A stretch of DNA of 40,971 nt, from positions 1 to 40,971 of the forward strand of contig JACQHS010000110.1 in assembly GCA_016198915.1 (NCBI GenBank). Reading direction: 5' to 3'. The notes below the pieces were generated by a model. The model made no database searches. It saw only the letters and a program-made list of their open reading frames with translations, and had not been told where the DNA came from. This stretch comes from Candidatus Omnitrophota bacterium (GTDB taxonomy: Bacteria; Omnitrophota; Gorgyraeia; Aquiviventales; Aquiviventaceae). Below, one piece after another: positions 13,854 through 32,473 of the stretch; the first letter of the stretch is position 1, and each line of letters starts with the position of its first letter. A program made the translations under genes and the position numbers.

Positions 13854-15053
13854 ATGCGCGTGTGTATTCTCTATCAGCATGATCCCACGGCGCACTACTC
13901 CGGGGGGATTGGGACGTTCATCAACACCTTCATCAAGTACGCCCCGGCGGACTTCGACATCAGCCTGGTGGGCGTCGCGGTGGATCCACGAGCCCACCCG
14001 GTGGGGGCATGGCATCGCGTGCGGGTCGCCGGACGCCCCGTCGAGTTCCTGCCGATCGTGGCGGCGCACCCCGCCCTGCGTGATCGGGTACCCTTGAGCC
14101 TGCGATACACGTGGGCCCTCAAGCGGTATTGGAAGACCATCAATGTGCGGGACGCCGTGATCGAGCTGCACCGCATCGAGCCGGGCCTCGCGCTCAAGGG
14201 CCTGACGAACCCCAAAATCCTGTTCCTGCATGTGCACCCGGAGGATCTGTGCAACCCCATGACCGAGGTGGCCTGGGGCCGGTGGTTTCCCTGGTTGTAT
14301 TTCTGGCTCGAGCGTCAACTGATCAAGGACATGGCGCGCGTCTTCCTCGTCCGGCAGGATGCGGTGGGCTGGTACCGGAACCGGTATCCAAACCTGGCGG
14401 AGCGGTTTTCGTTCTTGCCCACGTGGATGGACGAAGAGGTGTTCGTATCGCTGCCGGAGGGCGAGCGCCGTTGGCAGAAACAGGAGCTGGCCCGGGCCCA
14501 CGGGTTGGATCCGAATGACCGCCTGCTGTTGTTCGTGGGACGCTTCGAAGGGCAGAAGGACCCGCTGCGCCTGCTGCAGGCGTTCCGTCAGGTCAATGGG
14601 CGTGAGAACCACACGCGGCTGGTCATGATCGGTGAGGGGGCTTTGGAGGGGGAGATCCGTGGGTATCTGGCGGCTCATAGGTTGACAGGTCGAGTGAGCA
14701 TCGTCCGGCCGCAGCCCCAGTCCGAGATTGCGAAGTGGATGAACGCGGCCGACTGTCTGTGCTTGAGCTCGGCGTTCGAGGGGATGCCCCGCGTGGTGAT
14801 TGAGGCGCTGCGCTGCGGTCTTCCCGTCGTCTCGACGGCCGTGGGTGAGGTGCCGCGTGTCCTCACGACTGATCAGGCGGGACGGCTGGTCCGCGAGCGG
14901 ACCCCTGAAGCCTTGGGAGCGGCGATCGGTGAGGTCCTCAGGCAGCCGCCGGATCGGGAAGCCTGCCAGGAGCAGGGGGCCCCGTTCACGGCCAAGAAGA
15001 TTCTGGGACAGGTCTATGCCTCATATCGGACGCTGGGTCAGCAGGCCGGATGA
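13854..15053 (+). CDS. Glycosyltransferase family 4
   Basis: 'LLFVGRFEGQKDPLRLLQAF', 'LVMIGEGALEGEI' and 'LSSAFEGMPRVVIEALRCGLPVVSTAVGEVPRVL'. Confidence 0.85.
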   Translation: MRVCILYQHDPTAHYSGGIGTFINTFIKYAPADFDISLVGVAVDPRAHPVGAWHRVRVAGRPVEFLPIVAAHPALRDRVPLSLRYTWALKRYWKTINVRDAVIELHRIEPGLALKGLTNPKILFLHVHPEDLCNPMTEVAWGRWFPWLYFWLERQLIKDMARVFLVRQDAVGWYRNRYPNLAERFSFLPTWMDEEVFVSLPEGERRWQKQELARAHGLDPNDRLLLFVGRFEGQKDPLRLLQAFRQVNGRENHTRLVMIGEGALEGEIRGYLAAHRLTGRVSIVRPQPQSEIAKWMNAADCLCLSSAFEGMPRVVIEALRCGLPVVSTAVGEVPRVLTTDQAGRLVRERTPEALGAAIGEVLRQPPDREACQEQGAPFTAKKILGQVYASYRTLGQQAG

Positions 15054-15871
15054 CGATGCGCAGCGTTGAGCTGTTCGGCATGCCGTTTGAGAACGTCACC
15101 ATGCCGCAGGCCCTCGAGCGCATCGACGGATTGGTGCGGCAACCAGGGCGCCGCTACGTCATGACCCCAAATATCGATGCGGTCGTGCGGTGGCCGAAGG
15201 ATCCTGAGTTCCGCGACGCCTACCAGCGGGCGGCGCTCATCTTTGCCGACGGCATGCCTATCGTCCTGGCGAGTCGGCTGCTGGGCTCTCCCCTGAAGGA
15301 GCGGATTGCCGGCTCTGATCTGTTTCCAAGGCTCTGTCGGCAGGCCGCCGAGCGGGGCCACAGCGTGTTCTTCCTCGGAGGCCAAGATGGGGTGGCCGAA
15401 CAGGCCGCCCGGAACCTGCGGGGACGCTTTCCGTCCCTTCGGGTGGTGGGCTGCTATGCGCCGCCGATCGGATTTCAGTTCGATGCGGCTGAACACGAGC
15501 GGATGGTGCAGCGTGTCAATTCGGCGCGTCCCGATCTGTTGTTCCTTGCGCTGGGCTGCCCAAAGCAGGAGAAGTGGATTGCCAAGCACATCCACGAACT
15601 TGAGGTAAAGGTGGCGGTCTGTGTGGGCGCGGCGATTGACTTTGAGGCCGGCACCGTCAGGCGAGCGCCCCGCTGGATGCAGCGCAGCGGGCTGGAGTGG
15701 CTCTGGAGGCTTGTCCGTGAGCCTCGGCGCTTGTGGCGGCGGTACCTGATCGAGGACACGGCGTTTGTCGGCCTATTTCTCAGCGAGTGGTGGCGTGTGT
15801 GCGTCAGGCGAGCGGAAGCCGGCGGGCCCGTTGCGTCGTCAGGGCCACTGCGCAGCGGTGAATCATCATGA
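15050..15871 (+). CDS. WecB/TagA/CpsF-family glycosyltransferase (GT26)
   Basis: 'FADGMPIVLASRLLG', 'VFFLGGQDGVAEQAA', 'LFLALGCPKQEKWI' and 'GLEWLWRLVREPRRLWRRYL'. ATGA overlap at both ends. Confidence 0.85.
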   Translation: MTMRSVELFGMPFENVTMPQALERIDGLVRQPGRRYVMTPNIDAVVRWPKDPEFRDAYQRAALIFADGMPIVLASRLLGSPLKERIAGSDLFPRLCRQAAERGHSVFFLGGQDGVAEQAARNLRGRFPSLRVVGCYAPPIGFQFDAAEHERMVQRVNSARPDLLFLALGCPKQEKWIAKHIHELEVKVAVCVGAAIDFEAGTVRRAPRWMQRSGLEWLWRLVREPRRLWRRYLIEDTAFVGLFLSEWWRVCVRRAEAGGPVASSGPLRSGESS

Positions 15872-18003
15872 GAGGATTTAGCACCGCGTCCTCTTCGTCG
15901 ATGTCCGCCTCTGTGAGCGTGGCACAGATTCGGCGCTGGGTGGGCCTCACGGTCCTTGGCCTGGCCGGCGTGTGGGTCGTCTTCGCGCAGCTCGTCGCAC
16001 CCCAGGCGATTCAGGCGGCCTACCACGGTGAGGGGGCCTCCGTTTTGAGTCACATCATCCGAGAGCTCGGCCAGCCGCTGGATGAGCTCCTGTGGCGCTG
16101 GGGCATGCTCACCCAGGCGGTCGTGCTCGGCTGCCTCGGTCTGTGGCTGCTCGTCTGGGTGACCACGAGTCCCGGCTTCTTCAAGCGGTTTGTGGGAGAG
16201 GCCACGCCGGGGACCCTGGGGGCCATCCGGATGCTGACGTGCGGCATCCTGCTCCTCCACACCCTGTGGGAGGGGCTGGCGAGCACCGCGCTGCTTCCCA
16301 GGGAGATGATCAATACCCCCGGAGGTATCATGCGCGTGCTGGCCCTCCTGCCCATCGGGTTTGAGCGCTTCCTGGCTAACGAGACTGCGCTCGGAGTCTT
16401 CCAGTGGGTGACCGGGGCGCTGCTGTTCTTGGGCGCGATCGGTTGGAGGACGCGGATCACGGTTCCATTGGGCGCCGTGGGCTACCTGCTCATGGGGGGG
16501 ATCTTTCGCCTGTACGCGTGGTTCTACCACACGGGCGTGATCCCGGTGTACGTGATGGCGGTGCTCTCGCTGACGCCCTGCGGGGACGGGTGGTCGGTCG
16601 ATCGTCTGCGGAAAGTGGCCAGAGGAGCGCCGGTGCCTCCTGCCGATCGGGCCACCGCCGTCTACGGATGGGCTCGGTACGCGTGCTGGGTGGTGATTGC
16701 CCTGCCGTACCTGGCGGCTGGGATGAGCAAGCTTCGCAATAGCGGGCTGACGTGGTGGAATGCCACGAACATGAGGATCTTCCTGTACCGGGATACCCTC
16801 AACCCGATGGGGTTTGAGTCCGAGCTGTCCTTGCGGCTCACCTCAGCCCCCGATGCGGTATTTGCGGTGTTGGGTCTCGTCGGGCTTCTTGCTGAGCTCG
16901 TCTTCGTATCGGTCCTCTTCTCCCGCTGGGCCCGCCGGATCCTGCCGTTTGTGGCGGCCGGCATGCACGCAGGGATTTTCCTTCTGCAGAACATCCTGTT
17001 TCTGGATCTCATGCTGCTCCAGCTGGCGTTCATCGATTGGACCAGGATCCGCACGGCGGCTGGCCGGTGGCTCGAGGCCCACCGAGGGACCCTTGAGGTC
17101 CTTTACGATGGGCAGTGCCCGCTGTGCGTCCGGAGCGTCCGTCTGCTGGGTCCGCTCGATCTGTTCAATCGGTTGCGCTGGATTGATTTTCGGACGTTGA
17201 ACCTGACGGACTACAACGCCGGGCATGGCGTGAGGCTCACGTCGAGTGAGCTGGAACAAGCGATGGCCGTCGTGTCGCGGAGAAGGACGCGCCAAGGGTT
17301 TAAGGCCTGGAGGGCCATCGCGCAGGCGATTCCGGCAGGCTGGCTTGTGGCCCCCTGGCTCTACGTGCCGGGGATCCCCTGGCTGGGTGAGCGGGTCTAC
17401 CGGCGCGTGGCGCAGAGTCGCCACAAGCTCTTCAAGTGCGATGCGGCTTGCGCACACGAGGGCGAGGCGGCGCAGGGGCTCGCCCCGCAGCCGAGGAGAG
17501 CTCCCAACGCGCTGCGGGGTCCTCTGGTGGTGTCCGCGTCGGCCATCGTGTTGCTGCTGTGCTGGATCTACCGTGTGGAGGAGTATCCGCTCACCGCCCT
17601 GCAGATGTACACGAAGCCCACGACAGGGATCGCGGAGTACTACAAGGTTCTGGCGCACCGGGCCTCCGGCGAGACCGCCACCGCCCGCATCAAGGAGGCC
17701 ATCCCCGCGATGACCGACGGGCGCTATCGCCGGGTCATCCGGATGTGCTTCAAGCCGGACCAGGTGCAGGTGTGCGAGAAGTTTCTTGCCGCGTGCGGGG
17801 CGGCCTTCAACGCACAGGCTCGCGCCGGCGAACGGGTCACCCATCTCGAAATCCAGAAATGGGCGTGGGATGTCCGCGCTAATCCCTCGGACCCTGAACA
17901 TGGGCGGCTGGCCGACCGTTTTCTCTTCTCGCTGGAGTCGAAGAAGTCCGTGGAGGCGCAAACGCTGCTTGTAGCGTTCGACGAAGTCGGACAGCGCCAA
18001 TGA
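15868..18003 (+). CDS. Fusion protein: HTTM (vitamin-K-dependent gamma-carboxylase-like) membrane domain + DCC/DUF393 CxxC thiol-disulfide oxidoreductase + TM + unknown C-terminal domain
   Basis: HTTM-like 'LGAIRMLTCGILLL', 'LFLGAIGWRTRI', 'GDGWSVDRL' and 'YLAAGMSKL' match human GGCX 'LAVFRFLFGFLMVL', 'LGMMLGLCYRI', 'HYWSVDGL' and 'FIAGVKKL'. DCC module 'LEVLYDGQCPLCVRSVRLL...GERVYRRVAQSRHKLF' (CPLC codons 17116-17127). Confidence 0.7.
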   Translation: MRGFSTASSSSMSASVSVAQIRRWVGLTVLGLAGVWVVFAQLVAPQAIQAAYHGEGASVLSHIIRELGQPLDELLWRWGMLTQAVVLGCLGLWLLVWVTTSPGFFKRFVGEATPGTLGAIRMLTCGILLLHTLWEGLASTALLPREMINTPGGIMRVLALLPIGFERFLANETALGVFQWVTGALLFLGAIGWRTRITVPLGAVGYLLMGGIFRLYAWFYHTGVIPVYVMAVLSLTPCGDGWSVDRLRKVARGAPVPPADRATAVYGWARYACWVVIALPYLAAGMSKLRNSGLTWWNATNMRIFLYRDTLNPMGFESELSLRLTSAPDAVFAVLGLVGLLAELVFVSVLFSRWARRILPFVAAGMHAGIFLLQNILFLDLMLLQLAFIDWTRIRTAAGRWLEAHRGTLEVLYDGQCPLCVRSVRLLGPLDLFNRLRWIDFRTLNLTDYNAGHGVRLTSSELEQAMAVVSRRRTRQGFKAWRAIAQAIPAGWLVAPWLYVPGIPWLGERVYRRVAQSRHKLFKCDAACAHEGEAAQGLAPQPRRAPNALRGPLVVSASAIVLLLCWIYRVEEYPLTALQMYTKPTTGIAEYYKVLAHRASGETATARIKEAIPAMTDGRYRRVIRMCFKPDQVQVCEKFLAACGAAFNAQARAGERVTHLEIQKWAWDVRANPSDPEHGRLADRFLFSLESKKSVEAQTLLVAFDEVGQRQ

Positions 18004-19949
18004 GGTCGAAGGTGTGGCTTGCGGTGCGCATCGGTGCTGTGGTTGGGGCGCTGGTGGGAGCTGCGGAGTGCCTCGCGTTGCTCCTGCGGATCCCGTCGTG
18101 GCCACTCGATACCCCCACGATCCCGGTGGCCATGATGATCTACGGGTTCATTGCGGCAGTGATGGCTGGGGTGTGGGGACTGGCCGCGTGGCGTCGTCTG
18201 GATCATCAGACGTTTCAAGTCAGAACGGTGATGTGTACGCTGTTAGCCATGACCTATTTGCTTGGGGGCTATTGGATTCACCGATGGTGGTCGCCTCAGC
18301 TCCTGGCGCTTCCCAGCCTCCTGGTGACTGGGTTGTGGACCCTGGCGTGGCTGATCGGAAGCTGGATCTTGCTGAGGCCTCCTGGACGGCCTTCAGCCTC
18401 CTTTGAGACCAGTTGGGTCCGTCCCCTTCGAGGACTGATGCTCGGACTGCTCGTGGTCGCCGGTGCGTCACTGATGCTGCCCTCCCTGTGGATCAGGACC
18501 CATCAGGTCCTCGGCGCACGGGACGTTCCCGGGGGGACTCAACGCCCGAATATCCTGCTGATTGTGATGGACACCGCACGGGCCGACCGTTTCTCCTCCT
18601 ACGGCTACCACCGCAAGACAACCCCCAACCTTGATCGCCTGGCCCAGGACGGCGTGCTGTTCGAGCGCGCAAGCTCAGCAGCCCCTTGGACGTTGCCTTC
18701 ACACGCCACGCTCTTTACCGGGCTCTATCCAGCCCAGCATCAAGCGGAACGGCCGCATCCGCGCTTGGACAGTCGTTTCGCGACGCTGGCGGAGCTCTTG
18801 TACGACCACGGCTATCAGACCGCAGGTTTTTCGAATAACCACTGGGTCAGCCGAGAGATGAACTTTCACCAGGGGTTTGAGCACTTTGACGACATGCTGG
18901 ACGGCGGCCGGCTGATCAACCGGCTTGCGGTGGTGCGCGTCATGAAGAAGGTCACAGGGCTTGTGACTCGACGCCTCGACGACGGTGCGGAAGCGACTAA
19001 TCAAAGCGTCAGACGGTGGCTCAAGACGGTCTTCGATCCCGGCCGACCGTTCTTTGTCTTCATCAACTACCGTGAGCCGCATTTTCCCTACAAGCCGCCT
19101 GAGGCCTTCCGGAGCCGTTTCCTTCGACACCCACGCGAACCGGTGGAAAAGGTGCTTGAGGTTGCTGCGAGCCTCCATCGGTTCGCTCCGGCTGCCCATC
19201 AGGCCGCTCGTGTCGATCGGCCGATGCGGCAGCTCCTGAACGACCTCTACGACGGGGAGATCGCGTACCTGGATGCGAAGATTGGAGAGCTGTTAGGGGA
19301 GCTGGAGACCCGCCGGCTCCTCGACGATACCGTGGTCATTGTGACCAGCGACCACGGGGAGAACATCGGCGACCACGGGCTCTTCGGCCATCAGTTCTCC
19401 GTGTATGAAACCCTGCTGCACGTCCCCCTGGTCCTGCGCTACCCCGCCGGCTTGCCCGCCGGCAGGCGGGTGGCAGAGCGCGTCTCCCTGGTGGACCTGC
19501 TGCCCACCCTGATCGAACTCCTCTCCCTCGCGGCGCCGAGCCTTCAGGCGGCCCTGCCGGGTCACAGTTGGGTCGGTTCGTCCCTCGTCGTGGCGCCGGA
19601 CCTGCCCATCCGATCCGAGTATGCGGCTCCGGTTCCCATGCTGGCACGAAGCAGGACGCGGGGACAAGCGATCGACGAGCGTTCTTTCATGCGGAGCCTG
19701 AAGAGCCTTTCCCGTGGCGGCGTCAAGTTCATCTGGGCCTCCGACGGACACCATGAACTCTACGACCTGCGTCACGATCCCGGAGAATCGCAGAATGTCA
19801 TCCAGCAGTTTCCGGACACAGCGAGAGCGCTAAAGGCGGAGCTGGACCAGTGGTTGACGGCCATGCAGTCCGCAGGCACTCCGGAGGACGTCGAGCCGAT
19901 GAGGGAGTGGACGCGCAAGGAACTGCGAGCCCTGGGGTATCTCCAATGA
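18000..19949 (+). CDS. Membrane-anchored alkaline-phosphatase-superfamily (sulfatase-like) enzyme, Thr-nucleophile type, paralog 1
   Basis: N-terminal TM bundle, then 'NILLIVMDTARADRFSSYGY', 'APWTLPSHATLFTGLYP' (Thr codon 18690-18692) and 'VIVTSDHGENIGDHGLFGH'. ATGA overlaps at both ends. Confidence 0.8.
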   Translation: MRSKVWLAVRIGAVVGALVGAAECLALLLRIPSWPLDTPTIPVAMMIYGFIAAVMAGVWGLAAWRRLDHQTFQVRTVMCTLLAMTYLLGGYWIHRWWSPQLLALPSLLVTGLWTLAWLIGSWILLRPPGRPSASFETSWVRPLRGLMLGLLVVAGASLMLPSLWIRTHQVLGARDVPGGTQRPNILLIVMDTARADRFSSYGYHRKTTPNLDRLAQDGVLFERASSAAPWTLPSHATLFTGLYPAQHQAERPHPRLDSRFATLAELLYDHGYQTAGFSNNHWVSREMNFHQGFEHFDDMLDGGRLINRLAVVRVMKKVTGLVTRRLDDGAEATNQSVRRWLKTVFDPGRPFFVFINYREPHFPYKPPEAFRSRFLRHPREPVEKVLEVAASLHRFAPAAHQAARVDRPMRQLLNDLYDGEIAYLDAKIGELLGELETRRLLDDTVVIVTSDHGENIGDHGLFGHQFSVYETLLHVPLVLRYPAGLPAGRRVAERVSLVDLLPTLIELLSLAAPSLQAALPGHSWVGSSLVVAPDLPIRSEYAAPVPMLARSRTRGQAIDERSFMRSLKSLSRGGVKFIWASDGHHELYDLRHDPGESQNVIQQFPDTARALKAELDQWLTAMQSAGTPEDVEPMREWTRKELRALGYLQ

Positions 19950-21952
19950 GGGGAAGGACCTCAAGGGTCACAAAGGGTCTGAGCGGTTTCAGAACCTTCA
20001 GCGCTGCCCTGCTGCAAGGTGTGCTCTGCGGGATCGCGGTCGGATGGTTGACCGGGTTCTTGGAAGTCGTGGTGTTCTTGCCCAACCCCACAGGGACGGC
20101 TCACCACTTCCTCCTGCCCGCGATGCTGTTCTACAGCGTGGTCTGGTCGGTTGTGGCGTTGGCGTTCGGGGTGACGCTGTGGCTGGCGTGCCGGCTGTTC
20201 AATAGGCCGCTTCGGCCTGGCGAGCCTCTGACGCGCTGGTACCTGGCCGTGCTGATTCCCTTGGGGCTGTTCGTGATCGCCGGCGGGCATATCAACATGC
20301 GGTATCTTCCCTCCTTTACCGATGGGCGCTCCTTGCTCTTTGATGCCGTGTTTTTGGCGGCGAATGTGCTGCTGGGGTTGTGGCTCTATCGGCATGGGGT
20401 GGGGTGGGGATGGCGCTTCATCAGGAGGCCATCACGCAGGCTCTGGTGGGCGCTGAGCGCGGGAGGCGTGGCGATCGGCCTTGTGGCGGGCAGCGTGTTG
20501 CTCTGGGGAAGACCTCACGTGGCTCCAACGGTGCGGCCGGCGAGGGCGGATGCCGTCCCCAACGTGCTGTTGATTGCGATCGACGCCTTGCGGCCCGACC
20601 ACGTCTCCGCCTACGGCTATGAGCGGCGGACCACGCCCAGCCTCGATCAACTGGCGCGCGAGGGAGCGCGGTTCACCGAGGCCTACGCGAATTCATCCTG
20701 GACGAAGACCTCGGTGCCGACCATGTTGGCGTCGATCTACCCCTCGGCGCACAACGTGCATCACATGGCGTCCGGGGTGCCGGAATCCCTCTTGCTGCTG
20801 CCTGAGGTGCTGCAATTGCACGGCTATGCGACGGGGATCTTTTCGGCGAATTCCTTCGTCTCGCCGCTCTTTGGTTTTGACCAAGGGGTTGAGGAGTTCT
20901 ATCACGAAGACGTGTCGTTCTTCAAAAATCTGATGTTGGGCCACATCCTGGCGAGTTTGCGCCAGTACTCCCCAGCGATCACCTGGGTCTATCGGGGGCT
21001 GATAAATCTTGACCTGCCGGCGCCCTTTGGCAACCGGAGGAACATCGCAGCACCCGGCTTGAACAAGGCCTTGCTCGACTGGGTTCGCACGCTGGAGGGC
21101 CGGCCGTTCTTTGCGTACATGCATTACATGGAACCGCACACGCCGTACGCGCCGCCGGCGCCCTTCGACACCCTGTTTGATCCCGCGTACCGGCGTCCCT
21201 ATGAGACCGACGGCCCGATCTCTGAGGGCTTTGAGCCGTTTGAACGGAGCGACGCCCTCACTCCTCAACGGCGGCAGAACCTGATTGCGCAATATGACGG
21301 GGAGATCGCCTATGTCGATCAGATGATCGGTGAGCTGTTCCGGAGGCTCAAGGAGTTGGGGCTCTATGAGCGCACGGTGGTCATCATCACGGCGGACCAC
21401 GCGGAAACCTTCTACGAGCATGGCGGGTGGGGCCACGGAAAATCGCTCTTCAATGAGGTGCTGCGTGTGCCCCTCCTCATCCGCTACCCGACTGTCTTCC
21501 CGGCGGGCACGGTGGTGGAAGCGGTGGCCCGTCACGTGGACCTGATGCCGACGATCCTGGAACTCTGTTCGATTGCGCCGGCCGGCTTCATGGAGGGAAC
21601 GGGGCTGGTGTCCCTCGTGCAGGATCCGGAGGCGGCCGGCGACGCGAGGCCGGTGTACAGTGAACTCTTGCGACCGGCTCGGGGATCGTACGGACGGGCT
21701 GTGCAGGACGGCGACTTCAAGCTCATCGAAGTCCACACGCACGATGAGGAACGTTGGCTGCTGTTCGATCTTGCGCAGGACCCGGGGGAGCAACACCCGC
21801 TGGATGTGGAGGCGCATCCGATGGGCCCGCCCCTCAAGGAGCTCCTGGCCTCGTTTCAAGAACGGGCAGCGCGGATGGCGGTGGCCCCGAAGACCGTCAA
21901 GATCGATCGGGAGACACGGGATCGCCTGCGAGCCGTTGGCTACCTGCACTAG
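19946..21952 (+). CDS. Membrane-anchored AP-superfamily (sulfatase-like) enzyme, Thr type, paralog 2 (divergent)
   Basis: TM bundle, then 'NVLLIAIDALRPDHVSAYGY', 'SSWTKTSVPTMLASIYP' (Thr codon 20702-20704) and 'VIITADHAETFYEHGGWGHG'. ATG 19946 overlaps the upstream TGA. Confidence 0.8.
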   Translation: MRGRTSRVTKGLSGFRTFSAALLQGVLCGIAVGWLTGFLEVVVFLPNPTGTAHHFLLPAMLFYSVVWSVVALAFGVTLWLACRLFNRPLRPGEPLTRWYLAVLIPLGLFVIAGGHINMRYLPSFTDGRSLLFDAVFLAANVLLGLWLYRHGVGWGWRFIRRPSRRLWWALSAGGVAIGLVAGSVLLWGRPHVAPTVRPARADAVPNVLLIAIDALRPDHVSAYGYERRTTPSLDQLAREGARFTEAYANSSWTKTSVPTMLASIYPSAHNVHHMASGVPESLLLLPEVLQLHGYATGIFSANSFVSPLFGFDQGVEEFYHEDVSFFKNLMLGHILASLRQYSPAITWVYRGLINLDLPAPFGNRRNIAAPGLNKALLDWVRTLEGRPFFAYMHYMEPHTPYAPPAPFDTLFDPAYRRPYETDGPISEGFEPFERSDALTPQRRQNLIAQYDGEIAYVDQMIGELFRRLKELGLYERTVVIITADHAETFYEHGGWGHGKSLFNEVLRVPLLIRYPTVFPAGTVVEAVARHVDLMPTILELCSIAPAGFMEGTGLVSLVQDPEAAGDARPVYSELLRPARGSYGRAVQDGDFKLIEVHTHDEERWLLFDLAQDPGEQHPLDVEAHPMGPPLKELLASFQERAARMAVAPKTVKIDRETRDRLRAVGYLH

Positions 21953-21968
21953 AAACGCTGAGGATGGC

Positions 21969-23918
21969 ATGAGGCAGCAGTTGGTGGTGGCGATGACGAT
22001 CGGCGGAATGGTCGGGGCCTTCTGCGGGGCCGTCGAGGCGGGCGTGTTCTTGGTGCGCATCTCGTGGGGTCCTCTGGATACGCACACGATCGCCAAGGCG
22101 ATGGTGCTCTATGGACTGCCCAACGCGATCATCGTTGGGTTCTGGGGACTGGTCGCGGGGCGAGGGATGGATCTCAGGACGTTTGAGATCAGGACGCTGG
22201 CGTTCAGTCTCCTGACTATGGGCTATCTGTTCGGAGGGTTGTACGTGAACCGGCTGTGGCTGCCTGAGATCACGAAACTTCCGAGCCTGGTTTTCACCGG
22301 ATCCTGGACCCTCGCATGGCTGGCCGGCGCCTGGGCGCTGCTGAAGCTCCGCACACGCCCGGGGCACCCGCCCCGCACCGATCTTGCCTGGATCGGCGCT
22401 CTGCGGATGGCGGCGATCGGACTCGCCGTTGTGGCGGGGCTGTCGTTCGTGCCTCCGCTCCTGGCGGGCAGGCCCACCCGAGCTGGTGGCGCGGCGCCGA
22501 CCGTGCTGGGGCCTGCCGGGCGCCCGAACGTCCTGCTCATCGTGATGGACACCACGCGAGCCGACCGTTTGTCTTCGTACGGATATCCGCGCAACACGAC
22601 CCCGCATCTGGACCGCTTCGCCCAAGAGGGGGTCCTGTTCGAACAGGCGAGCGCGACGGCCCCGTGGACCCTGCCGTCGCATGCGTCGCTGTTCACCGGG
22701 CTGTATGTGGCCCAGCATGGAGCGGACACGTCGCACCGACGGCTCGATGATCACCTGGTCACGCTGGCTGAGCTGCTCCGCGAGCAGGGCTATCAGACGG
22801 TTGGCTTCTCCAACAATGGAGCCGTCAGCGTGGCGATGAACTTTCAGCAAGGGTTTGAGGTGTTCGAAGAGTCGCGCTTTTTCAGGGGGCAGGCGTTTAG
22901 GCAGCTCGCAATCGTTCGGCTCTTGGACCGATTTCAACTCCCGCAGCGCGGGGGCAACGCGCACGCCGCAGAGACCAACAAGCGCATCAGGGCCTGGTTC
23001 GAGCGCCGCTATGACCGCCGTCGGCCGTTCTTCCTGTTCATCAACTACATGGAGCCGCATTTTTCCTATGAGCCGCCTGAGCCGTACCGCAGGCGGTTCC
23101 TCCGACTGCCGAACGAGGTGAGGCGATCGCTCCGGAGGGGGCATGCGGTGATCAAGAGTCCCCCGCCGGTCTCCCTGGACGAGCCGATACGCGAAACCCT
23201 CGGGGACCTCTACGATGGGGAGCTTGCGTATCTCGATATGCGGATCGGCGAGCTGTTGGACGAGTTCAGGGCGCGCAAGCTGCTGGACGACACCGTAGTG
23301 ATCGTGACGAGCGACCACGGCGAGAACATCGGCCATCACGAAATTCTGGGGCATCACGACTGTGTGTACGAGACCCTGCTGCATGTTCCGCTGATCATCC
23401 GGTATCCGAAGGCGCTGCCGGCCGGTGCGCGGGTTGGCCAGCCCGTCTCGCTGGTGGATGTGCTGCCGACGCTACTCGCACTGCTGGAGGTGAGGGCCCC
23501 CGCCCTCGAGGCGTCGCTGCCGGGCTACAGCTTCGTGGGGTCCGGCTTGGCGGTGCGGGAGGATCGGGTCATCCTGTCCGAGTACGAGATCGCACGTCTC
23601 GGGCCGCAGGGCGCCGGGGGGTCGGGACGGACGAATGCAACAGCGGATGCGACGGCGACGGCGAAGCTGAAGAGTCTACGTGAGGGCGCGCTCAAGTTCA
23701 TCCGGTCGCCAGACGGGCGGCATGAGCTCTATGACCTCGAGCGGGATCCGGCCGAGTCGCGCAACCTGATCGCAGAGTTGCCAGGGCAGGCGGCGGCGAT
23801 GGAGGCGAAGCTCGTGAGACACTTCAAGGCCCTGAAGCCGGTCGGCTCACCCGAGCCGGTGCCTGAGCTCGATGCGGTGACGCGCGAGCAGCTCAGAGCG
23901 CTTGGGTATCTTCATTGA
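21969..23918 (+). CDS. Membrane-anchored AP-superfamily (sulfatase-like) enzyme, Thr type, paralog 3 (close to paralog 1)
   Basis: 'NVLLIVMDTTRADRLSSYGY', 'APWTLPSHASLFTGLYV' (Thr codon 22668-22670) and 'VIVTSDHGENIGHHEILGH'. GAGGA at 21960-21964 precedes ATG 21969. Confidence 0.8.
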   Translation: MRQQLVVAMTIGGMVGAFCGAVEAGVFLVRISWGPLDTHTIAKAMVLYGLPNAIIVGFWGLVAGRGMDLRTFEIRTLAFSLLTMGYLFGGLYVNRLWLPEITKLPSLVFTGSWTLAWLAGAWALLKLRTRPGHPPRTDLAWIGALRMAAIGLAVVAGLSFVPPLLAGRPTRAGGAAPTVLGPAGRPNVLLIVMDTTRADRLSSYGYPRNTTPHLDRFAQEGVLFEQASATAPWTLPSHASLFTGLYVAQHGADTSHRRLDDHLVTLAELLREQGYQTVGFSNNGAVSVAMNFQQGFEVFEESRFFRGQAFRQLAIVRLLDRFQLPQRGGNAHAAETNKRIRAWFERRYDRRRPFFLFINYMEPHFSYEPPEPYRRRFLRLPNEVRRSLRRGHAVIKSPPPVSLDEPIRETLGDLYDGELAYLDMRIGELLDEFRARKLLDDTVVIVTSDHGENIGHHEILGHHDCVYETLLHVPLIIRYPKALPAGARVGQPVSLVDVLPTLLALLEVRAPALEASLPGYSFVGSGLAVREDRVILSEYEIARLGPQGAGGSGRTNATADATATAKLKSLREGALKFIRSPDGRHELYDLERDPAESRNLIAELPGQAAAMEAKLVRHFKALKPVGSPEPVPELDAVTREQLRALGYLH

Positions 23919-23929
23919 GGAAACCACTG

Positions 23930-26900
23930 ATGGTAGCTGAGCGTATCCGAGGAGCGGCAAGCGAAGTCGCAGGGATCTCCGCGAGGCCTCTGCGGCTCGT
24001 GATGATGGCGCTGGTCTGCGCGTTGGTGAGCATCGGGTTCGGCGGCGACTCGAGCGCGGCTTTGGCGGTTCAGGATGCGCTTACCAATGGTGGGTTCGAA
24101 CATCCCGAGGACGGTGCGCAGAGCCCGGAGGGCTGGGAAGTTGGGGGGCGGACGGAGCGCGTCGAGTCCTCCGCGGATGGTGGGGGGGCATGGGCGTTGC
24201 GGCTGTCCTCCACAACGGAGGAGCCGAATCCGAGGGCGTCGCAATCGCTGGACGTTGTCCAGCCGCTTGCGACGGCGGTCACGGTGGCGGGCCTGGTGAG
24301 GATCAAGGATGTGCATCCCATCGGTGACGGGAAGGGCGCCGCCAAGGTCACCGTCAGCTTCTTGTCGGTGGATGGCCGCGTGATCCGTCGCAAGACGATC
24401 CGAACATGGGATGGCACGTTCGGCTGGCGCCCGTGGTCCGGCTCCGTGCGCATCCCGAAGGGCGCCGGCCGGCTTGAGCTCGCGCTCGAGCTGGAGGAGG
24501 CCCTGGGACAGGCCACATTCGATGCCGTGCAGCTGCTGTGGGGCCTGCCGGACGACCATGACCGCGAGAACCTCGTCGTCGATGGCGGGTTCGAGTATGT
24601 GAACCCCCTGTCGGTCTGGGAACTGGATCAGGGAGCGAAAGTGGTGTATCCCGGCGCCGAAGGCCATGCCGCATTGGAGATTTCACGGGACCAACCCGGG
24701 CACGCTGCCGCCCGTCAGCGGCTCGTGTTCGCTGAGGCGTCGATCCGGGAGGCGACACTCACGTTTGACCTCAAGCTGAAGAAGGTCAAGGCACGAGCGC
24801 CCGGGGGAGGCGCGAAGGTGGAGCTGGGCTTCTGGGATCGTGAAGGCGAGCCCGTGGGGAAGCCGGTTGTGGTGGGTCCATGGGCAGGGACACAGGAGAC
24901 TTGGAAGTCGCGCGCCAAACAAGTGCGGGTTCCGCCTGCGGCAAGCGAGGCGACGCTGGGTCTGTTGCTGGATCAGGCGCGCGGAACGGCCTGGTTCGAT
25001 GGGGTGCGGCTGGCGGCGCACGGGGCCGAGGGGCCGCTGGTGCGTCGTCTGGAGTCCCGAACGGACATCGCGACCTGGAGAGTCATTGAGCCCAGCATCG
25101 GACCCTTGGAGCCGCCGTTTGATGCGAGCGGGTTGCTCAATCCGCCCGCGGGGCAGCACGGATTCCTGACCGTGGAGGACGGCCGTTTTGTCTTCGAGGA
25201 CGGGACACCCGCGCGCTTCTTCGGCGTCAATATTGACGCGGCCGCCAACTTCCCGAGCCATGAGCACGCTGACCGCTTCGCCGAGCGGCTGGCGCAGCTT
25301 GGGTGCAACCTCGTGCGGCTGCATCATCTGGATGCCCCGTGGGCCGACCCCAACATCTTCGCTGCCGAATTCGAGGACACCCAGCATCTCTCGCGCGAGA
25401 GCCTGGACCGGCTTGACTACTTCATCGCGCAGCTCAAGGCGCGGGGGATCTACATCTACATGGATCTGTTGGTCAGCCGCCAGTTCAAGTCCGGGGATGG
25501 CGTGCCGGCCTACCGGCAGCTCTCGCGAGGGGCGAAGATCGCCGCCCAGTACAGCCCGCGGCTGATTCAGCTGCAGAAGGCGTATGCGCGCGATCTGCTC
25601 ACCCACTATAACCGGTACACGCGGACGCGGCTGGTCGAGGAGCCGGCGCTCGTCCTGGTTGACCTGATCAACGAGAGTTCGCTCGCGGCTGACTCGAAGC
25701 GGTTCAAGGAGCTCCCAGGGCCCTACCGCGATGAGCTGCAGCTGCTCTGGGGGGAATATCTGTCCGGTCAGGGCGTGGATCGCGCCACGATGGACGCGGA
25801 GCGCTATCTTGAAGTCGACGATCCGTTCGTGCAGGGATTCTACACGAACCTCCAGCAGCGCTACTTTGACGAGCTGTACGGCTACCTCCGCGGGCTCGGG
25901 CTTTCGATTCCGATTGCGGGAAGCAACCGCAGCACCCTGTCGCTGAGGACCTGGGAGCTTGCGACCAACGCCACACTGGATTTCATTGATCGGCATGACT
26001 ACTGGGACCATCCGAAGGGCGGGTACGGGGACCTGGTGCGATTCCACAATCGCTCGATGATCGAAGGCGGCCAGGAGCACCATCCGATCGCCAAGCTGAG
26101 TGTACAGCGTGTGGCGGGCGTGCCGTTCGTGGTGAGCGAGTGGAACATCCCCTGGCCCAATGAGTACCGGGCGGTCGGTCCCCTCCTCATGGCGGCCTAT
26201 GCCTCATTTCAGAATTGGGACGGCCTACTCCTCTTCACCTACGATGGGGATCTCGCCGCCACGCGAATCGCGAATAACTTTGATGTCAGTACAATGCCGG
26301 AGCAGTTCCTGCAGCTTCCAGCCGCAGCTCGGCTCTTCCACCGCCGAGAGGTCCAGCCGGCGCGTCTCACTCGCGCGTATCCCATCGACGCAGAGCACCA
26401 GAGCATCAGCCCGGGGCTTCCGCTTCGGCACGGTGTAGCGCGCGTTGCGGGGGATGCCGCACCACCCAAAGCGCTGGCCATGGCGAGCAACCCCTGGGTG
26501 AGCGATACCGGCGAGCTGGCCTGGGATGAACGGCACGGGCGCGTCTCGATCAAGACGGCTCGTGTACAAGCCGTTGTCGGACAGATGGGGGACGGACCGC
26601 TGTCGCTTCCTGATGCGACGTTCTCGGTGGAGACGCCTTTTGCCTCCGTGGTGCTCTCGAGCCTGGATGAGCAGCCGGTCGTGAGCTCGCGGCACCTGTT
26701 GCTGACGACGGTCGCGCGATCGGAGAACACCGGGACGGTCTATAACGCGACGCGGACGCTGCTGCGGGACAGCGGCACGGGCCCTATCCTCATGGAGCCG
26801 GTGATGGGCTCCGTATCCATGCCGCTGGGCGGGCGTCGACCGACCGGGGTGTTTGCGCTGGATACCACTGGACGCCGGGTGAGCGAGGTGGCGGCTTCCG

Positions 26901-28422: not shown

Positions 28423-28439
28423 CGCAGACAACCGAGCCC

Positions 28440-32394: not shown

Positions 32395-32473
32395 CTGGAA
32401 GGACCCCGAGCTCCTCGAGCGGATGGGCTCGGCGCTCGTGCATCGCGGCCCGGATATGGGCGTGCGCACATGA
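32372..32473 (+). pseudogene. 5' relic (33 codons) of a glutamine-hydrolysing asparagine synthase (AsnB-type Ntn amidotransferase)
   Basis: '[33 protein letters not shown]' has the obligatory N-terminal Met-Cys-Gly-Ile and the 'HRGPD' motif, then stops. It overlaps the SDR gene 3' end and the next gene start (ATGA). Confidence 0.6.

What the first reader, a model, noticed from the sequence alone, without database searches (positions are those of the whole stretch)
15868..18003. Vitamin-K-carboxylase-like HTTM domain fused to a CxxC (DCC/DUF393) oxidoreductase inside an EPS operon
The first ~390 aa are a polytopic domain. By eye it aligns with the HTTM core of vertebrate gamma-glutamyl carboxylase, including 'GDGWSVDRL' vs 'HYWSVDGL' and 'AAGMSKL' vs 'AGVKKL', the segment holding the catalytic Lys of human GGCX. 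It is followed directly by a DCC-family module ('LYDGQCPLCVRSVRLL', CPLC at 17116-17127), another TM and a ~170-aa domain with no motif I recognise. In animals the carboxylase depends on a separate CxxC enzyme (VKOR) to recycle the quinone. Here a CxxC redox module sits in the same polypeptide, suggesting a self-contained quinone/thiol redox couple. The gene is locked by ATGA overlaps between a GT26 and three AP-superfamily ectoenzymes. I know of no described role for HTTM proteins in polysaccharide biosynthesis.
Basis: partly seen in the sequence, partly recalled or inferred. Interest (0 to 1): 0.78.

Follow-up and report, generated by a model that had tools for sequence, protein, structure and literature searches.

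The report
GGCX-like enzyme in polysaccharide operons
A bacterial membrane protein related to the human vitamin-K-dependent carboxylase, with a built-in thiol-redox domain, sits inside cell-surface polysaccharide gene clusters in several phyla, which points to an undescribed, probably quinone-driven, step in making or modifying surface sugars.

Summary
ORF 15868-18003 (711 aa) is a real gene with hundreds of full-length homologues. It has four parts:
- two extra N-terminal TM helices;
- a divergent HTTM core (about aa 100-405), which Foldseek matches only to human GGCX;
- a DCC1-like CxxC domain (aa 411-523, Pfam E=1e-20);
- one further TM helix plus a compact domain of about 125 aa that no library recognises.

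GGCX residues K218, H160, W223 and D263 align with family-invariant K288, H221, W296 and E343. Sequence-profile statistics for that alignment are weak.

1. The constant unit of the family is the HTTM core plus TM plus C-domain. The DCC domain is an optional insert at the position of GGCX's cytosolic TM8-TM9 loop. It is absent in about 94 of 132 clusters and lacks CxxC in about 16 more.
2. CxxC is therefore predicted cytoplasmic, and the Lys site and C-domain periplasmic.
3. Polysaccharide genes lie within 10 kb in 13 of 17 independent loci. Nine are at or beside wzm/wzt, and one repeats this window's Wzx/Wzy locus.

A sister clade keeps an NDH-2-like quinone reductase in the same operon. Function is inferred: a quinol/O2-driven modification of exported polysaccharide, with DCC as an accessory recycler. 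HTTM-DCC fusions are already described; the polysaccharide link appears new.

The parts
15868..18003 (+). Whole gene: 711-aa HTTM-like / DCC1-like / TM / C-domain protein
   Evidence: ORF and translation. 100% identical protein P0001 in NCBI, named 'MAG: DUF393 domain-containing protein [Candidatus Omnitrophica bacterium]'. At least 474 homologues.
15937..16164 (+). Two N-terminal TM helices (aa 24-46 and 78-99) with a loop of about 30 aa, preceding the HTTM core
   Evidence: AF2 helices H18-52 and H71-99. Hydropathy peaks. They lie N-terminal to the region that aligns with GGCX residue 34 onwards.
16165..17082 (+). HTTM-like transmembrane core (aa about 100-405)
   Evidence: Foldseek: the top 13 PDB hits are all human GGCX. 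Colinear hhalign to GGCX 34-330. Relatives pass the Pfam HTTM cut-off. Sub-threshold LMF1 hit at aa 281-388.
16528..16530 (+). His221 codon, aligned with GGCX His160
   Evidence: hhalign register. Invariant in all 136 clusters of the conservation tally, i.e. 25 with and 111 without a DCC hit. Role of H160 in GGCX: PMC12647623.
16729..16731 (+). Lys288 codon, aligned with the GGCX catalytic base Lys218
   Evidence: AAGMSKL aligns with IAGVKKL in every hhalign run. K in 135 of 136 clusters, the other a gap.
16894..16896 (+). Glu343 codon, aligned with GGCX Asp263 (partner of Lys218)
   Evidence: LLAELVF aligns with LLLDLSA. E in 133 of 136 clusters, Q in 3.
17098..17436 (+). DCC1-like thiol-disulfide oxidoreductase domain (aa 411-523), predicted cytoplasmic
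   Evidence: PF04134, E=1.3e-20. It lies where GGCX has its cytosolic loop 310-360. The flanking loop carries 24 K+R.
17116..17127 (+). CPLC redox motif (Cys417, Cys420)
   Evidence: Sequence. Invariant in the 36 close homologues. Absent from about 16 more distant clusters that keep the insert.
17503..17568 (+). TM helix (aa 546-567), positional equivalent of GGCX TM9
   Evidence: AF2 helix 546-567. Hydropathy. hhalign colinearity with GGCX 362-376.
17569..17937 (+). Periplasmic C-domain (aa 568-690): the E-x-YPLT..QMY motif followed by a beta-beta-alpha-alpha-beta-beta fold
   Evidence: AF2 pLDDT 87.7. No Pfam hit at E<=10. No PDB fold match. Found with the HTTM core in 98+34 of 150 clusters. 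The motif recurs in the separate small proteins of the sister clade and resembles GGCX 378-387.
15050..15871 (+). Upstream gene: GT26 (WecG/TagA/CpsF) glycosyltransferase, ATGA overlap
   Evidence: PF03808, E=2.6e-71. NCBIfam wecG_tagA_cpsF superfamily model passes its cut-off (168.5 against 69); EpsA-like 226 bits is below its cut-off of 500. Overlap.
18000..23918 (+). Three downstream genes for 4-5-TM + sulfatase-fold proteins (locus-type-specific context, not a general partner)
   Evidence: PF00884, E about 1e-50 each. No NCBIfam cut-off reached. T-L-P-S-H replaces C-x-P-x-R in the first and third of them, and the TM counts come from the same script. Overlap.

Best explanation
The gene encodes an inner-membrane enzyme of the HTTM / vitamin-K-dependent-carboxylase superfamily that works in a surface-polysaccharide pathway.

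Anatomy (shown):
- two extra TM helices;
- a GGCX-like transmembrane core with invariant K288, H221, W296 and E343 at the positions of GGCX K218, H160, W223 and D263;
- a DCC1-like CxxC domain inserted in the loop that is cytosolic in GGCX (between TM8 and TM9);
- a TM9-equivalent helix;
- a compact periplasmic domain in the place of GGCX loop LL9 and the start of its lumenal domain.

Mechanism (inferred from GGCX and MloH): at the periplasmic leaflet the Lys deprotonates a reduced naphthoquinone (menaquinol). Reaction with O2 produces a strong base. That base removes a poorly acidic C-H next to a carboxyl or ester group on the exported glycan or on one of its substituents. Carboxylation to a malonate-type group is the precedent; epimerisation is an alternative outcome.

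The C-domain closes the active site and selects the substrate. The cytoplasmic CxxC domain is an accessory. In this protein it probably re-reduces the oxidised quinone (epoxide or quinone) using cytoplasmic thiol reductants. Relatives that lack it must rely on other enzymes.
For: Fold. The AF2 model (pLDDT 81) matches only GGCX in the PDB: 13 hits at E 1e-5 to 7e-4, then nothing below E=1.

Family link. The N-domain profile finds 2929 clusters at 50% identity, 328 of them below 1e-30. Three of ten sampled relatives hit Pfam HTTM, two above its cut-off; others hit LMF1.

Active-site register. It is stable across four hhalign set-ups. The aligned residues are invariant in 136 clusters, with or without DCC. 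Their roles in GGCX are documented in PMC12647623.

Architecture. HTTM core + C-domain in 98 clusters, core + DCC + C-domain in about 34, of 150. A DCC-deleted profile aligns colinearly with GGCX 43-516, which puts the DCC insert in the cytosolic loop. Charge bias agrees.

Polysaccharide context:
- The window is an EPS locus.
- L001 repeats it at 54% identity.
- L003, L005, L006, L009, L011, L012, L017, L018 and L020 place the gene at or next to wzm and/or wzt, often with MBOAT, an acyl-AMP ligase and a carrier protein.
- L014 has it flanked by GT4 genes, and L090 has it beside GtrA-like, GT2 and carbamoyltransferase genes.

Quinone link. The sister clade (N-profile 45-77 bits) keeps an NDH-2-like Pyr_redox_2 gene just upstream in 12 cyanobacterial loci and in L089. 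A small TM protein carrying the same YP..MYS motif as the C-domain lies between them.

Precedent. A preprint models an HTTM-DCC protein plus DUF5819 as a GGCX-like complex that binds menaquinol, and MloH is a bacterial vitamin-K-dependent carboxylase.
Against: - No biochemical evidence exists for any member of this family.
- The query itself has no Pfam HTTM hit. Profile-profile statistics against GGCX are weak (probability 5-28%), so residue equivalences depend on a consistent register plus the fold match. I could not inspect a structural superposition.
- GGCX N159 is not conserved (Y/F/W here). The M401/M402 lid segment aligns to a gap. F378 is one residue off F299. The substrate site therefore differs.
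- The C-domain alone has no detectable fold similarity to the GGCX lumenal domain.
- DCC is missing or lacks CxxC in most of the family, so thiol recycling cannot be essential to the core reaction.
- CxxC and the Lys site are predicted on opposite faces of the membrane.
- No quinone reductase gene is conserved in the target clade. GlpD occurs only in this window.
- The chemistry needs O2, and the source is labelled Omnitrophica, many of which are anaerobes (own knowledge).
- 4 of 17 loci show no polysaccharide genes within 10 kb (L010, L013, L016, L019). The one DCC-less representative that scored highest against the N-domain profile (P0122, loci L007/L008) has only a divergently transcribed GT2 gene nearby.
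Confidence: 0.5

Rival explanations
1. Transmembrane thiol/quinone redox conduit, working like MauE, DoxX, LMF1, DsbB or VKOR. The HTTM-like core would hold a quinone and exchange electrons with the DCC CxxC. The purpose would be to support oxidative folding or maturation of periplasmic enzymes, such as the three sulfatase-fold proteins encoded just downstream. It would not modify the polysaccharide itself.
For: - Strong DCC domain with an intact CPLC.
- Sub-threshold LMF1 hits in 8 of 36 homologues. LMF1 is a maturation factor for secreted lipases (own knowledge).
- The gene is translationally coupled to a sulfatase-fold ectoenzyme gene.
- An NDH-2-like gene lies in the sister-clade operons.
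Against: - DCC is absent in about 94 clusters and lacks CxxC in about 16 of the 132 with both N and C domains, yet the K/H/W/E constellation stays invariant.
- Cys238 and Cys273 are only 60-80% conserved and do not track DCC presence.
- No conserved periplasmic Cys pair was seen.
- Sulfatase-fold neighbours occur only in the window and L001, not in the nine wzm/wzt loci.
Confidence: 0.15
2. Polyprenyl-glycan handling enzyme. The isoprenoid tunnel of the HTTM fold would bind the undecaprenyl tail of the exported Und-PP-glycan instead of a quinone. The conserved Lys/His/Glu would catalyse a transfer or release step, for example ligation to an acceptor, directly after export by Wzm/Wzt or Wzx.
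For: - The gene lies directly between wzm and wzt, or directly upstream of wzt, in L003, L009, L011, L012 and L020.
- GGCX substrate-binding residues (N159, the M401/402 segment) are not conserved.
Against: - No member of the superfamily is known to do this.
- The residues that are conserved are exactly those of the quinol-deprotonation site of GGCX.
- The sister clade is linked to a quinone reductase.
- The window locus already has two Wzy_C-family proteins.
Confidence: 0.15
3. Protein or peptide carboxylase, a true GGCX/MloH analogue. It would make Gla-like residues in a secreted protein or peptide, and its position in polysaccharide loci would be incidental or regulatory.
For: All characterised relatives act on amino-acid side chains: GGCX on Glu, MloH on an aspartyl intermediate.
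Against: - No conserved precursor gene was seen. Small ORFs follow the gene only in L005 and L006.
- There is no NRPS/PKS context.
- Polysaccharide genes lie within 10 kb in 13 of 17 loci of the DCC-bearing clade.
- The propeptide-clamp domain of GGCX (PF22777) is absent.
Confidence: 0.1
4. Assembly or annotation artefact: two or three separate genes joined by a frameshift.
For: None found. The sister clade does encode the small C-domain-like protein separately.
Against: 36 of 36 aligned homologues from independent metagenomes and genomes are colinear over the full length. Several long contigs and complete genomes carry the same fusion.
Confidence: 0.01

Closest known systems
[quoted passage not shown]
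   Same: Only significant structural match. Colinear order: TM core, cytosolic loop, one TM helix, extracytoplasmic domain. Counterparts of K218, H160, W223, D263 and H287 are invariant. A P...Q.Y motif follows the last TM helix.
   Different: 12-17% identity. Two extra N-terminal TM helices. A DCC domain replaces the cytosolic loop. The extracytoplasmic part is about 125 aa instead of about 350 aa, with no PF22777 hit, no jelly-roll clamp and no C-terminal domain. N159 and the M401/402 lid are not conserved. The context is polysaccharide loci, not Gla proteins.
Bacterial HTTM + DCC1-like fusion proteins with a DUF5819 partner (e.g. Melghirimyces A0A1G6IBF2/A0A1G6IAS5; bioRxiv 10.64898/2026.08.19.745780)
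   Same: HTTM core followed by a DCC domain. A single-TM protein with a small extracytoplasmic domain completes a GGCX-like assembly. The authors propose a vitamin-K-dependent carboxylation system.
   Different: There the partner is a separate gene; here it is fused C-terminally after DCC. The C-domain here does not hit Pfam DUF5819. The query's core is too divergent for Pfam HTTM. The preprint does not mention a polysaccharide context.
Cyanobacterial/Nitrospirales sister clade: NDH-2-like + small TM protein + HTTM-like-DCC operon (L021-L039, L089)
   Same: 25-29% identity over core + DCC. N-domain profile scores 45-77 bits. The small protein shares the YP..MYS motif of the C-domain.
   Different: The C-domain equivalent is encoded separately and upstream. 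A quinone-reductase-like flavoprotein is conserved in the operon. No polysaccharide genes were noted next to these operons.
MloH, vitamin-K-dependent carboxylase of malonomycin biosynthesis (Streptomyces; Law et al. 2018, as cited)
   Same: A bacterial member of the superfamily with an HTTM core fused to a DUF5819-like region. It shows that the chemistry is used in bacteria on non-Glu substrates.
   Different: It sits in a PKS-NRPS cluster, no DCC domain is reported, and it was not compared by sequence here.
VKOR / DsbB (CxxC quinone oxidoreductases)
   Same: Functional analogy only: a CxxC coupled to a membrane quinone, which in animals recycles vitamin K epoxide for GGCX (own knowledge).
   Different: No sequence or fold relation. 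The VKOR CxxC is membrane-embedded on the same (lumenal) face as the GGCX site. The DCC domain here is a soluble thioredoxin-like fold (weak glutaredoxin similarity) and is predicted on the cytoplasmic face.
Lipase maturation factor 1 (Pfam PF06762)
   Same: Weak hits to the second half of the core: aa 281-388, E=0.038. 8 of 36 homologues hit, the best at 2e-5.
   Different: Below the Pfam cut-off (14.5 against 27 bits). LMF1 has no DCC domain and its function is different and still unresolved.

Membership tests
HTTM / vitamin-K-dependent carboxylase superfamily (Pfam PF05090) | Match to the Pfam HTTM model above the gathering score | tested here: not met
   The query has no HTTM hit at E<=1, and none of the 36 close homologues has one. 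Of ten sampled representatives from the N-domain profile search (all >=300 bits), P0255 (32.1 bits) and P0157 (30.7) pass the 27.7 cut-off and P0263 (25.6) falls just below. Membership is therefore transitive only.
HTTM / vitamin-K-dependent carboxylase superfamily (Pfam PF05090) | GGCX-type transmembrane fold | tested here: met
   Foldseek of the AF2 model: ranks 1-13 are all human GGCX, E 1.1e-5 to 7.2e-4, prob 1.00, 338-659 aligned columns. Rank 14 has E=1.1. Whole-chain TM-scores are only 0.31-0.37, because the DCC insert and the lumenal domain differ.
HTTM / vitamin-K-dependent carboxylase superfamily (Pfam PF05090) | Catalytic base Lys (GGCX K218) with its partners W223 and D263 | tested here: inconclusive
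   K288, W296 and E343 align to them in four hhalign runs and are invariant in 136 clusters. The alignments have low probability (5-28%) and no structural superposition could be inspected.
HTTM / vitamin-K-dependent carboxylase superfamily (Pfam PF05090) | His160 equivalent at the extracytoplasmic end of the preceding helix | tested here: inconclusive
   H221 is invariant (136 of 136) and aligned to H160. The same caveat applies. The neighbouring N159 is not conserved (Y/F/W).
HTTM / vitamin-K-dependent carboxylase superfamily (Pfam PF05090) | Quinol- and O2-dependent epoxidase/carboxylase activity | not testable with these tools
   Needs biochemistry. The only indirect support is the conserved NDH-2-like gene in the sister clade.
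GGCX proper (orthologues of animal carboxylase) | Lumenal propeptide-clamp domain (Pfam PF22777) after the last TM helix | tested here: not met
   Vertebrate GGCX proteins carry PF22777 + PF05090. The query and 8 relatives have no Pfam hit in the C-domain even at E<=10. Foldseek of the C-domain alone finds no GGCX.
DCC1-like thiol-disulfide oxidoreductase (Pfam PF04134, formerly DUF393) | Full-length match to the model above the gathering score | tested here: met
   aa 411-523 match model positions 1-112 of 113, E=1.3e-20, 75.2 bits against 27.8. 36 of 36 homologues hit.
DCC1-like thiol-disulfide oxidoreductase (Pfam PF04134, formerly DUF393) | N-terminal D-x-x-C-x-x-C redox motif | tested here: met
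   YDGQCPLC, with C417 and C420 invariant in alignment A1. About 16 more distant clusters keep the domain but lack the cysteines.
Lipase maturation factor (Pfam PF06762) | Match above the gathering score | tested here: not met
   14.5 bits against 27, E=0.038. The best among relatives is E=2e-5.
DUF5819 (partner of HTTM-DCC proteins in the 2026 preprint) | Match of the C-domain to the Pfam model | tested here: not met
   No hit at E<=10 for 9 C-domains, and none for the sister-clade small proteins at E<=0.01. Only the position, the single-TM architecture and a short motif are shared.
VKOR / DsbB | Four-helix membrane bundle with a CxxC embedded next to the quinone | tested here: not met
   No Pfam, NCBIfam or PDB similarity. 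The CxxC sits in a soluble thioredoxin-like domain.

The most novel reading that the evidence does not exclude
This family would be the first GGCX-superfamily enzymes whose substrate is a carbohydrate polymer. A menaquinol/O2-driven 'strong base' enzyme on the periplasmic face would carboxylate (or epimerise) a carboxyl- or ester-adjacent carbon on exported O-antigen-like or EPS chains. That would create malonate-type, Gla-like metal-binding groups on bacterial surfaces. In some lineages a built-in cytoplasmic CxxC domain would act as a non-homologous analogue of VKOR, so that one polypeptide carries a bacterial 'vitamin K cycle'.
Probability: 0.18. Interest if true: 0.9.

Novelty: new variant of a known kind. 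Interest (0 to 1): 0.62.

Why it matters
Vitamin-K-dependent carboxylation is known for animal Gla proteins and for one bacterial natural product. The function of the many bacterial HTTM proteins is an open question.

This work defines a large, uncharacterised branch of at least 328 clusters at 50% identity. The members located in species genomes come from Nitrospirota, Acidobacteriota, Planctomycetota, Cyanobacteria and the window's Omnitrophica-labelled MAG. The branch keeps the quinol-activating residues of GGCX. It is repeatedly built into polysaccharide export and modification operons.

That gives a concrete, testable place to look for the bacterial function. It also gives a possible new chemical modification of surface glycans, and a candidate non-VKOR thiol recycler. 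If the inference is wrong, the family is still an unannotated, conserved component of wzm/wzt and Wzx/Wzy loci that current annotation labels only as 'DUF393/DCC'.

Tried and rejected
1. Direct sequence evidence for HTTM. Pfam and NCBIfam scans of the query, and phmmer and profile searches of PDB sequences, gave no HTTM or GGCX hit.
2. hhalign against human GGCX, as a single sequence and as a 19-sequence vertebrate profile. It gave a stable register but only E 2e-4 to 8e-3 and probability 5-28%. The extra database search for GGCX homologues returned only vertebrates at 70% identity or more and did not improve this.
3. C-domain identity. No Pfam hit at E<=10. The domain was modelled separately and searched against the PDB. 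The best hit had E=0.024, with weak T-fold-like matches that I do not trust. The GGCX 'clamp A' equivalence therefore remains positional only.
4. A DCC-specific cysteine relay through Cys238/Cys273 in the membrane core. Rejected, because both are equally and incompletely conserved with and without DCC.
5. GlpD (window 28314-30161) as a conserved quinol supplier. Rejected as general, because it occurs only in this window.
6. NDH-2 as a partner in the target clade. Not found, except in L089, where the sister module lies next door.
7. Sulfatase-fold genes as a general partner. Seen only in the window and L001.
8. Homology between the 317-, 324- and 427-aa unknown proteins beside the gene in L089, L090 and L003. 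No significant similarity.
9. Literature. No paper links HTTM to polysaccharides. The first HTTM/DUF393 search returned mostly unrelated acronyms.
10. P0144 could not be located on a contig.

Full report
**1. The observation**

The ORF 15868-18003 (+) exists and encodes 711 aa.
- GDGWSVDRL, aa 239-247
- AAGMSKL, aa 283-289
- LYDGQCPLC, aa 412-420, with CPLC at nt 17116-17127

The ATGA overlaps with the upstream GT26 gene and the downstream sulfatase-fold gene are real.

The window is one long, co-directional polysaccharide locus. In order it encodes:
- a porin, then Wza-like and Wzc-like proteins;
- two Wzy_C proteins and a Wzx flippase;
- GT2, GT9, GT4 and GT26 glycosyltransferases;
- the target gene;
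- three TM + sulfatase-fold proteins;
- a 1019-aa protein of unknown function;
- the initiating Bac_transf enzyme;
- a GlpD-like dehydrogenase and further glycosyltransferases.

An identical protein is in NCBI as 'DUF393 domain-containing protein' from a Candidatus Omnitrophica MAG, on a 40971-bp contig.

**2. Is it a real fusion?**

Yes. The word-indexed search returned at least 474 homologues. The best 120 are mostly about 650-740 aa and 46-81% identical over 85-98% of the query. In an alignment of 36 of them, all four parts are colinear and 78 columns are invariant. These include K288, H221, E343, H367, C417 and C420. The frameshift alternative is excluded.

**3. What the parts are**

*DCC domain.* PF04134 matches over its full length with E=1.3e-20. 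A profile search of PDB sequences gives only a faint glutaredoxin similarity around the CxxC. That is consistent with a thioredoxin-like fold.

*N-terminal core.* Pfam gives only a sub-threshold LMF1 hit, and NCBIfam an insignificant SdpB hit. Sequence searches of the PDB find nothing.

The AlphaFold2 model is confident (pLDDT 81, pTM 0.79). Against 350,542 PDB chains its 13 best matches are all human GGCX, at E 1e-5 to 7e-4 and prob 1.0. Rank 14 has E>1.

A profile of the N-terminal domain, searched against 1.84 billion representatives, finds 2929 clusters, 328 of them below 1e-30. Ten of the listed representatives, all scoring >=300 bits, were scanned against Pfam. Three hit HTTM: two pass the cut-off and one falls just below.

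I recalled the human GGCX sequence from memory and checked it against the PDB chain. One residue needed correcting. hhalign then gave the same register in every set-up:

| This protein | Human GGCX |
|---|---|
| R121 | the Arg of LAVFRFL |
| H221 | H160 |
| GDGWSVD | NHYWSVD |
| K288 | K218 |
| W296 | W223 |
| E343 | D263 |
| H367 | H287 |

The statistics are weak (E 2e-4 to 8e-3, probability 5-28%). I treat the residue equivalences as probable, not proven. They gain weight because these same positions are invariant across 136 clusters at 50% identity.

The cryo-EM paper PMC12647623 gives their roles in GGCX:
- W223 and D263 position K218.
- H160 binds the substrate carboxylate.

GGCX N159 is not conserved, and the M401/M402 lid segment aligns to a gap. 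The substrate site must therefore differ.

*C-terminal part.* It has one TM helix (546-567) followed by a beta-beta-alpha-alpha-beta-beta domain. Modelled on its own it reaches pLDDT 87.7. It hits no Pfam model even at E<=10 and no PDB fold.

**4.

I built local HMMs for the three parts and ran them against the 150 best representatives:

| Architecture | Clusters |
|---|---|
| HTTM core + C-domain, no DCC | 98 |
| Core + DCC + C-domain | about 34 |
| Core only (many look like fragments) | 15 |
| Core + DCC | 3 |

Measuring the linker between core and C-domain gives a sharper picture for the 132 clusters that have both:
- 94 have a short linker (under 80 aa).
- 20 have a DCC insert with CxxC.
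- About 16 have a DCC-like insert of the same length that keeps motifs such as LDLFxRL but has lost both cysteines.

The HTTM core and the C-domain are thus the obligatory pair. The DCC domain is an accessory that has been lost or inactivated repeatedly. In this window's protein and its close relatives it is intact.

**5. Topology**

A profile of DCC-less members, plus the query with DCC removed, aligns colinearly with GGCX 43-516:
- The core corresponds to GGCX TM1-TM8.
- The linker, which is the DCC insertion point, corresponds to the cytosolic loop 310-360.
- TM 546-567 corresponds to TM9.
- The motif E-x-Y-P-L-T..Q-M-Y corresponds to L-P-Y-S-H-F-L-T-Q-G-Y (378-387).
- The following strands and helix correspond to the start of the lumenal domain. 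That last stretch is low confidence.

Using the known GGCX topology (PMC12647623) and the K+R distribution, the prediction is:
- Periplasmic: H221, K288 and the C-domain.
- Cytoplasmic: the PCGDGWSVDRLRK loop and the DCC domain (24 K+R in the loop).

The CxxC and the Lys site are therefore on opposite faces of the membrane. I could not inspect model coordinates, so this remains a prediction.

**6. Genomic context elsewhere**

For the DCC-bearing clade, 17 independent loci were examined (window, L001, L003, L005, L006, L009-L020). L002 and L004 are second contigs carrying the same proteins as L001 and L003, so they are not counted separately.

- L001 (54% identity) repeats the window's Wzx/Wzy locus: two Wzy_C genes, a Wzx gene, glycosyltransferases, the target, a sulfatase-fold gene, Phosphodiest, a 955-aa homologue of the 1019-aa unknown (48% identity) and Bac_transf.
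- In nine loci the gene lies at or next to the polysaccharide ABC transporter. It is directly between wzm and wzt in L003 and L011, and in L020, where wzm is broken into fragments. It is directly upstream of wzt in L009 and L012. It lies downstream of wzm in L017 and L018. It is within about 1 kb of wzt in L005 and L006.
- Several of these loci also carry a fatty-acyl-AMP-ligase-like gene, a carrier protein, a DltB-like MBOAT and an unknown 427-aa protein.
- L014 has the gene flanked by GT4 genes. L015 has DegT and GT4 genes a few kb away. L019 has a SAM methyltransferase gene overlapping its end.
- L010, L013 and L016 show no glycan genes.

So 13 of the 17 loci have polysaccharide genes within 10 kb.

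Three DCC-less members were located on contigs. One sits beside an MBOAT gene (L089). One sits beside GtrA-like, GT2 and carbamoyltransferase genes (L090). One (L007/L008) has only a divergently transcribed GT2 gene nearby.

Identified hosts are Nitrospira/Nitrospirales, Acidobacteriota, Phycisphaerae, Pirellulales and a cyanobacterium. From my own knowledge these phyla use naphthoquinones rather than ubiquinone. That fits the model but is weak evidence.

**7. A sister clade gives the quinone link**

Cyanobacterial and some Nitrospirales genomes carry 450-aa HTTM-like + DCC proteins. They are 25-29% identical to the query over core + DCC, and the N-domain profile scores them at 45-77 bits.

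In 12 cyanobacterial loci and in L089, the gene is preceded by two others:
- a ~440-aa Pyr_redox_2 flavoprotein of NDH-2 type;
- a ~160-180-aa single-TM protein with the motif YPF..Y.MYS after its helix. This is the same motif and position as in the window's C-domain (hmmsearch E 3e-5 to 5e-3 on these few sequences; hhalign E 6e-4).

In that clade, then, the C-domain equivalent is a separate subunit and a quinone-reductase-like enzyme is in the operon.

From my own knowledge, NDH-2-type enzymes reduce vitamin K and phylloquinone (FSP1 in animals, NdbB in cyanobacteria). A thiol enzyme (VKOR) is needed for the epoxide. A flavoprotein + CxxC + GGCX-like set would amount to a complete vitamin K cycle. 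This is inference.

The 2026 preprint reached a related idea for an HTTM-DCC protein with a DUF5819 partner, and points to MloH as a fused bacterial precedent. L043 (Methylococcaceae) shows a canonical Pfam-HTTM + DCC + TM + C-domain protein. The three-part fusion therefore arose more than once.

**8. Most likely mechanism**

*Shown:* superfamily, domain order, invariant residues, optional DCC, polysaccharide linkage.

*Inferred:* the enzyme activates menaquinol with O2 at the periplasmic leaflet through K288. It uses the resulting strong base on a C-H next to a carboxyl or ester group of the exported glycan or one of its substituents. Candidate substrates are a uronic-acid C5 or an O-acyl group installed by the MBOAT systems that often sit nearby. 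Carboxylation is the precedent. The C-domain caps the site. The cytoplasmic CxxC domain helps to regenerate the quinone from the inner leaflet.

I put about 0.75 on 'GGCX-superfamily enzyme working in a surface-polysaccharide pathway'. I put about 0.35-0.4 on the quinol/O2 chemistry acting on a glycan, and about 0.3 on DCC as the epoxide or quinone reductase.

*Rivals:*
- A thiol/quinone redox conduit for maturation of periplasmic proteins. This is weakened by the loss of DCC or of CxxC in most of the family.
- A polyprenyl-glycan handling enzyme. This fits the wzm/wzt position but has no precedent.
- A protein carboxylase. No precursor gene was found.

**9. Novelty and score**

HTTM-DCC fusions and bacterial GGCX homologues are known, so this is not a new kind of system. 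Four things look new:
- this large branch, with its own C-domain and N-terminal extension;
- the DCC domain as an insert in the TM8-TM9 loop;
- the decay of its CxxC in some lineages;
- above all, the recurrent placement inside polysaccharide export and modification operons, for which I found no literature.

I rate it a new variant of a known kind, interest 0.62. It is a specific, testable lead on the long-open question of what bacterial HTTM proteins do, but no functional evidence exists yet.

Noticed in passing
window 18000-23918: Three tandem genes encode proteins with 4-5 N-terminal TM helices and a sulfatase-fold domain. The first and third have T-L-P-S-H where sulfatases have the formylglycine motif C-x-P-x-R. 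That suggests Thr-nucleophile phosphotransferases (EptA/LtaS-like logic) rather than sulfatases. None reaches any NCBIfam cut-off.
   Followed up: partly
window 23915-26974; L001 18529-21396: A 1019-aa protein with one N-terminal TM helix has no Pfam or NCBIfam hit. A 48%-identical homologue sits at the same position, just before the Bac_transf gene, in the syntenic locus L001. It is a conserved unknown of this EPS locus type.
   Followed up: partly
window 28314-30161: A GlpD-like FAD-dependent glycerol-3-phosphate dehydrogenase gene (DAO + DAO_C) lies inside the EPS operon, and its ORF overlaps the end of the Bac_transf gene. Such enzymes reduce membrane quinone (own knowledge). It was not found in any related locus.
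   Followed up: partly
L021, L022, L024, L026-L028, L031, L032, L034, L036, L038, L039, L089: A conserved operon holds an NDH-2-like Pyr_redox_2 flavoprotein, a ~170-aa single-TM protein (no Pfam hit; motif YPFxxYxMYS) and a ~450-aa HTTM-like + DCC protein. L036 carries two tandem copies of the last two genes.
   Followed up: partly
representatives P0142, P0167, P0171, P0175, P0181, P0184, P0214, P0218, P0222, P0230, P0234, P0235, P0242, P0251 and others: These family members keep a DCC-length insert with recognisable DCC motifs (e.g. LDLFxRL) but have lost both cysteines of the CxxC. The domain appears to survive as a structural element after losing redox capacity.
   Followed up: partly
L003 4368-9124; L005 3980-8811; L006 2002-6049; L089 373-2925: Next to the target gene these loci repeatedly carry a fatty-acyl-AMP-ligase-like enzyme, a small carrier protein, a DltB-like MBOAT and an unannotated protein of about 320-430 aa. 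This looks like a carrier-protein-dependent acylation system for an exported polymer. The unannotated proteins of L089, L090 and L003 are not detectably related to each other.
   Followed up: partly
P0144 (1275 aa; no contig found): This member of the family has an N-terminal BNR/Sortilin-Vps10 beta-propeller of about 780 aa fused in front of the HTTM core + C-domain. Such a propeller is typical of glycan-binding or sialidase-like proteins.
   Followed up: no
L043 9875-11779 (Methylococcaceae MAG): A 634-aa protein has a canonical Pfam HTTM domain (38 bits), a DCC domain, a further TM helix and a ~190-aa C-terminal domain. The window's HMMs detect only its DCC domain. It appears to be an independent instance of the same three-part architecture.
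   Followed up: partly
L016 12152-16570; L013 538-5478: In two loci without glycan genes, the target homologue sits beside a giant secreted protein: a 1472-aa CotH/LTD/dockerin protein in L016, and a 1646-aa protein with multicopper-oxidase domains in L013.
   Followed up: no
literature: PMC8743628: [quoted passage not shown] It may be coincidence, but it is the only published DCC/quinone/capsule co-occurrence I found.
   Followed up: no
window 2-652 and 32470-34049: The window starts inside a FecR-domain gene. Downstream of the EPS core lie an LPG_synthase_TM-family membrane protein gene and a hexapeptide acyltransferase gene.
   Followed up: no
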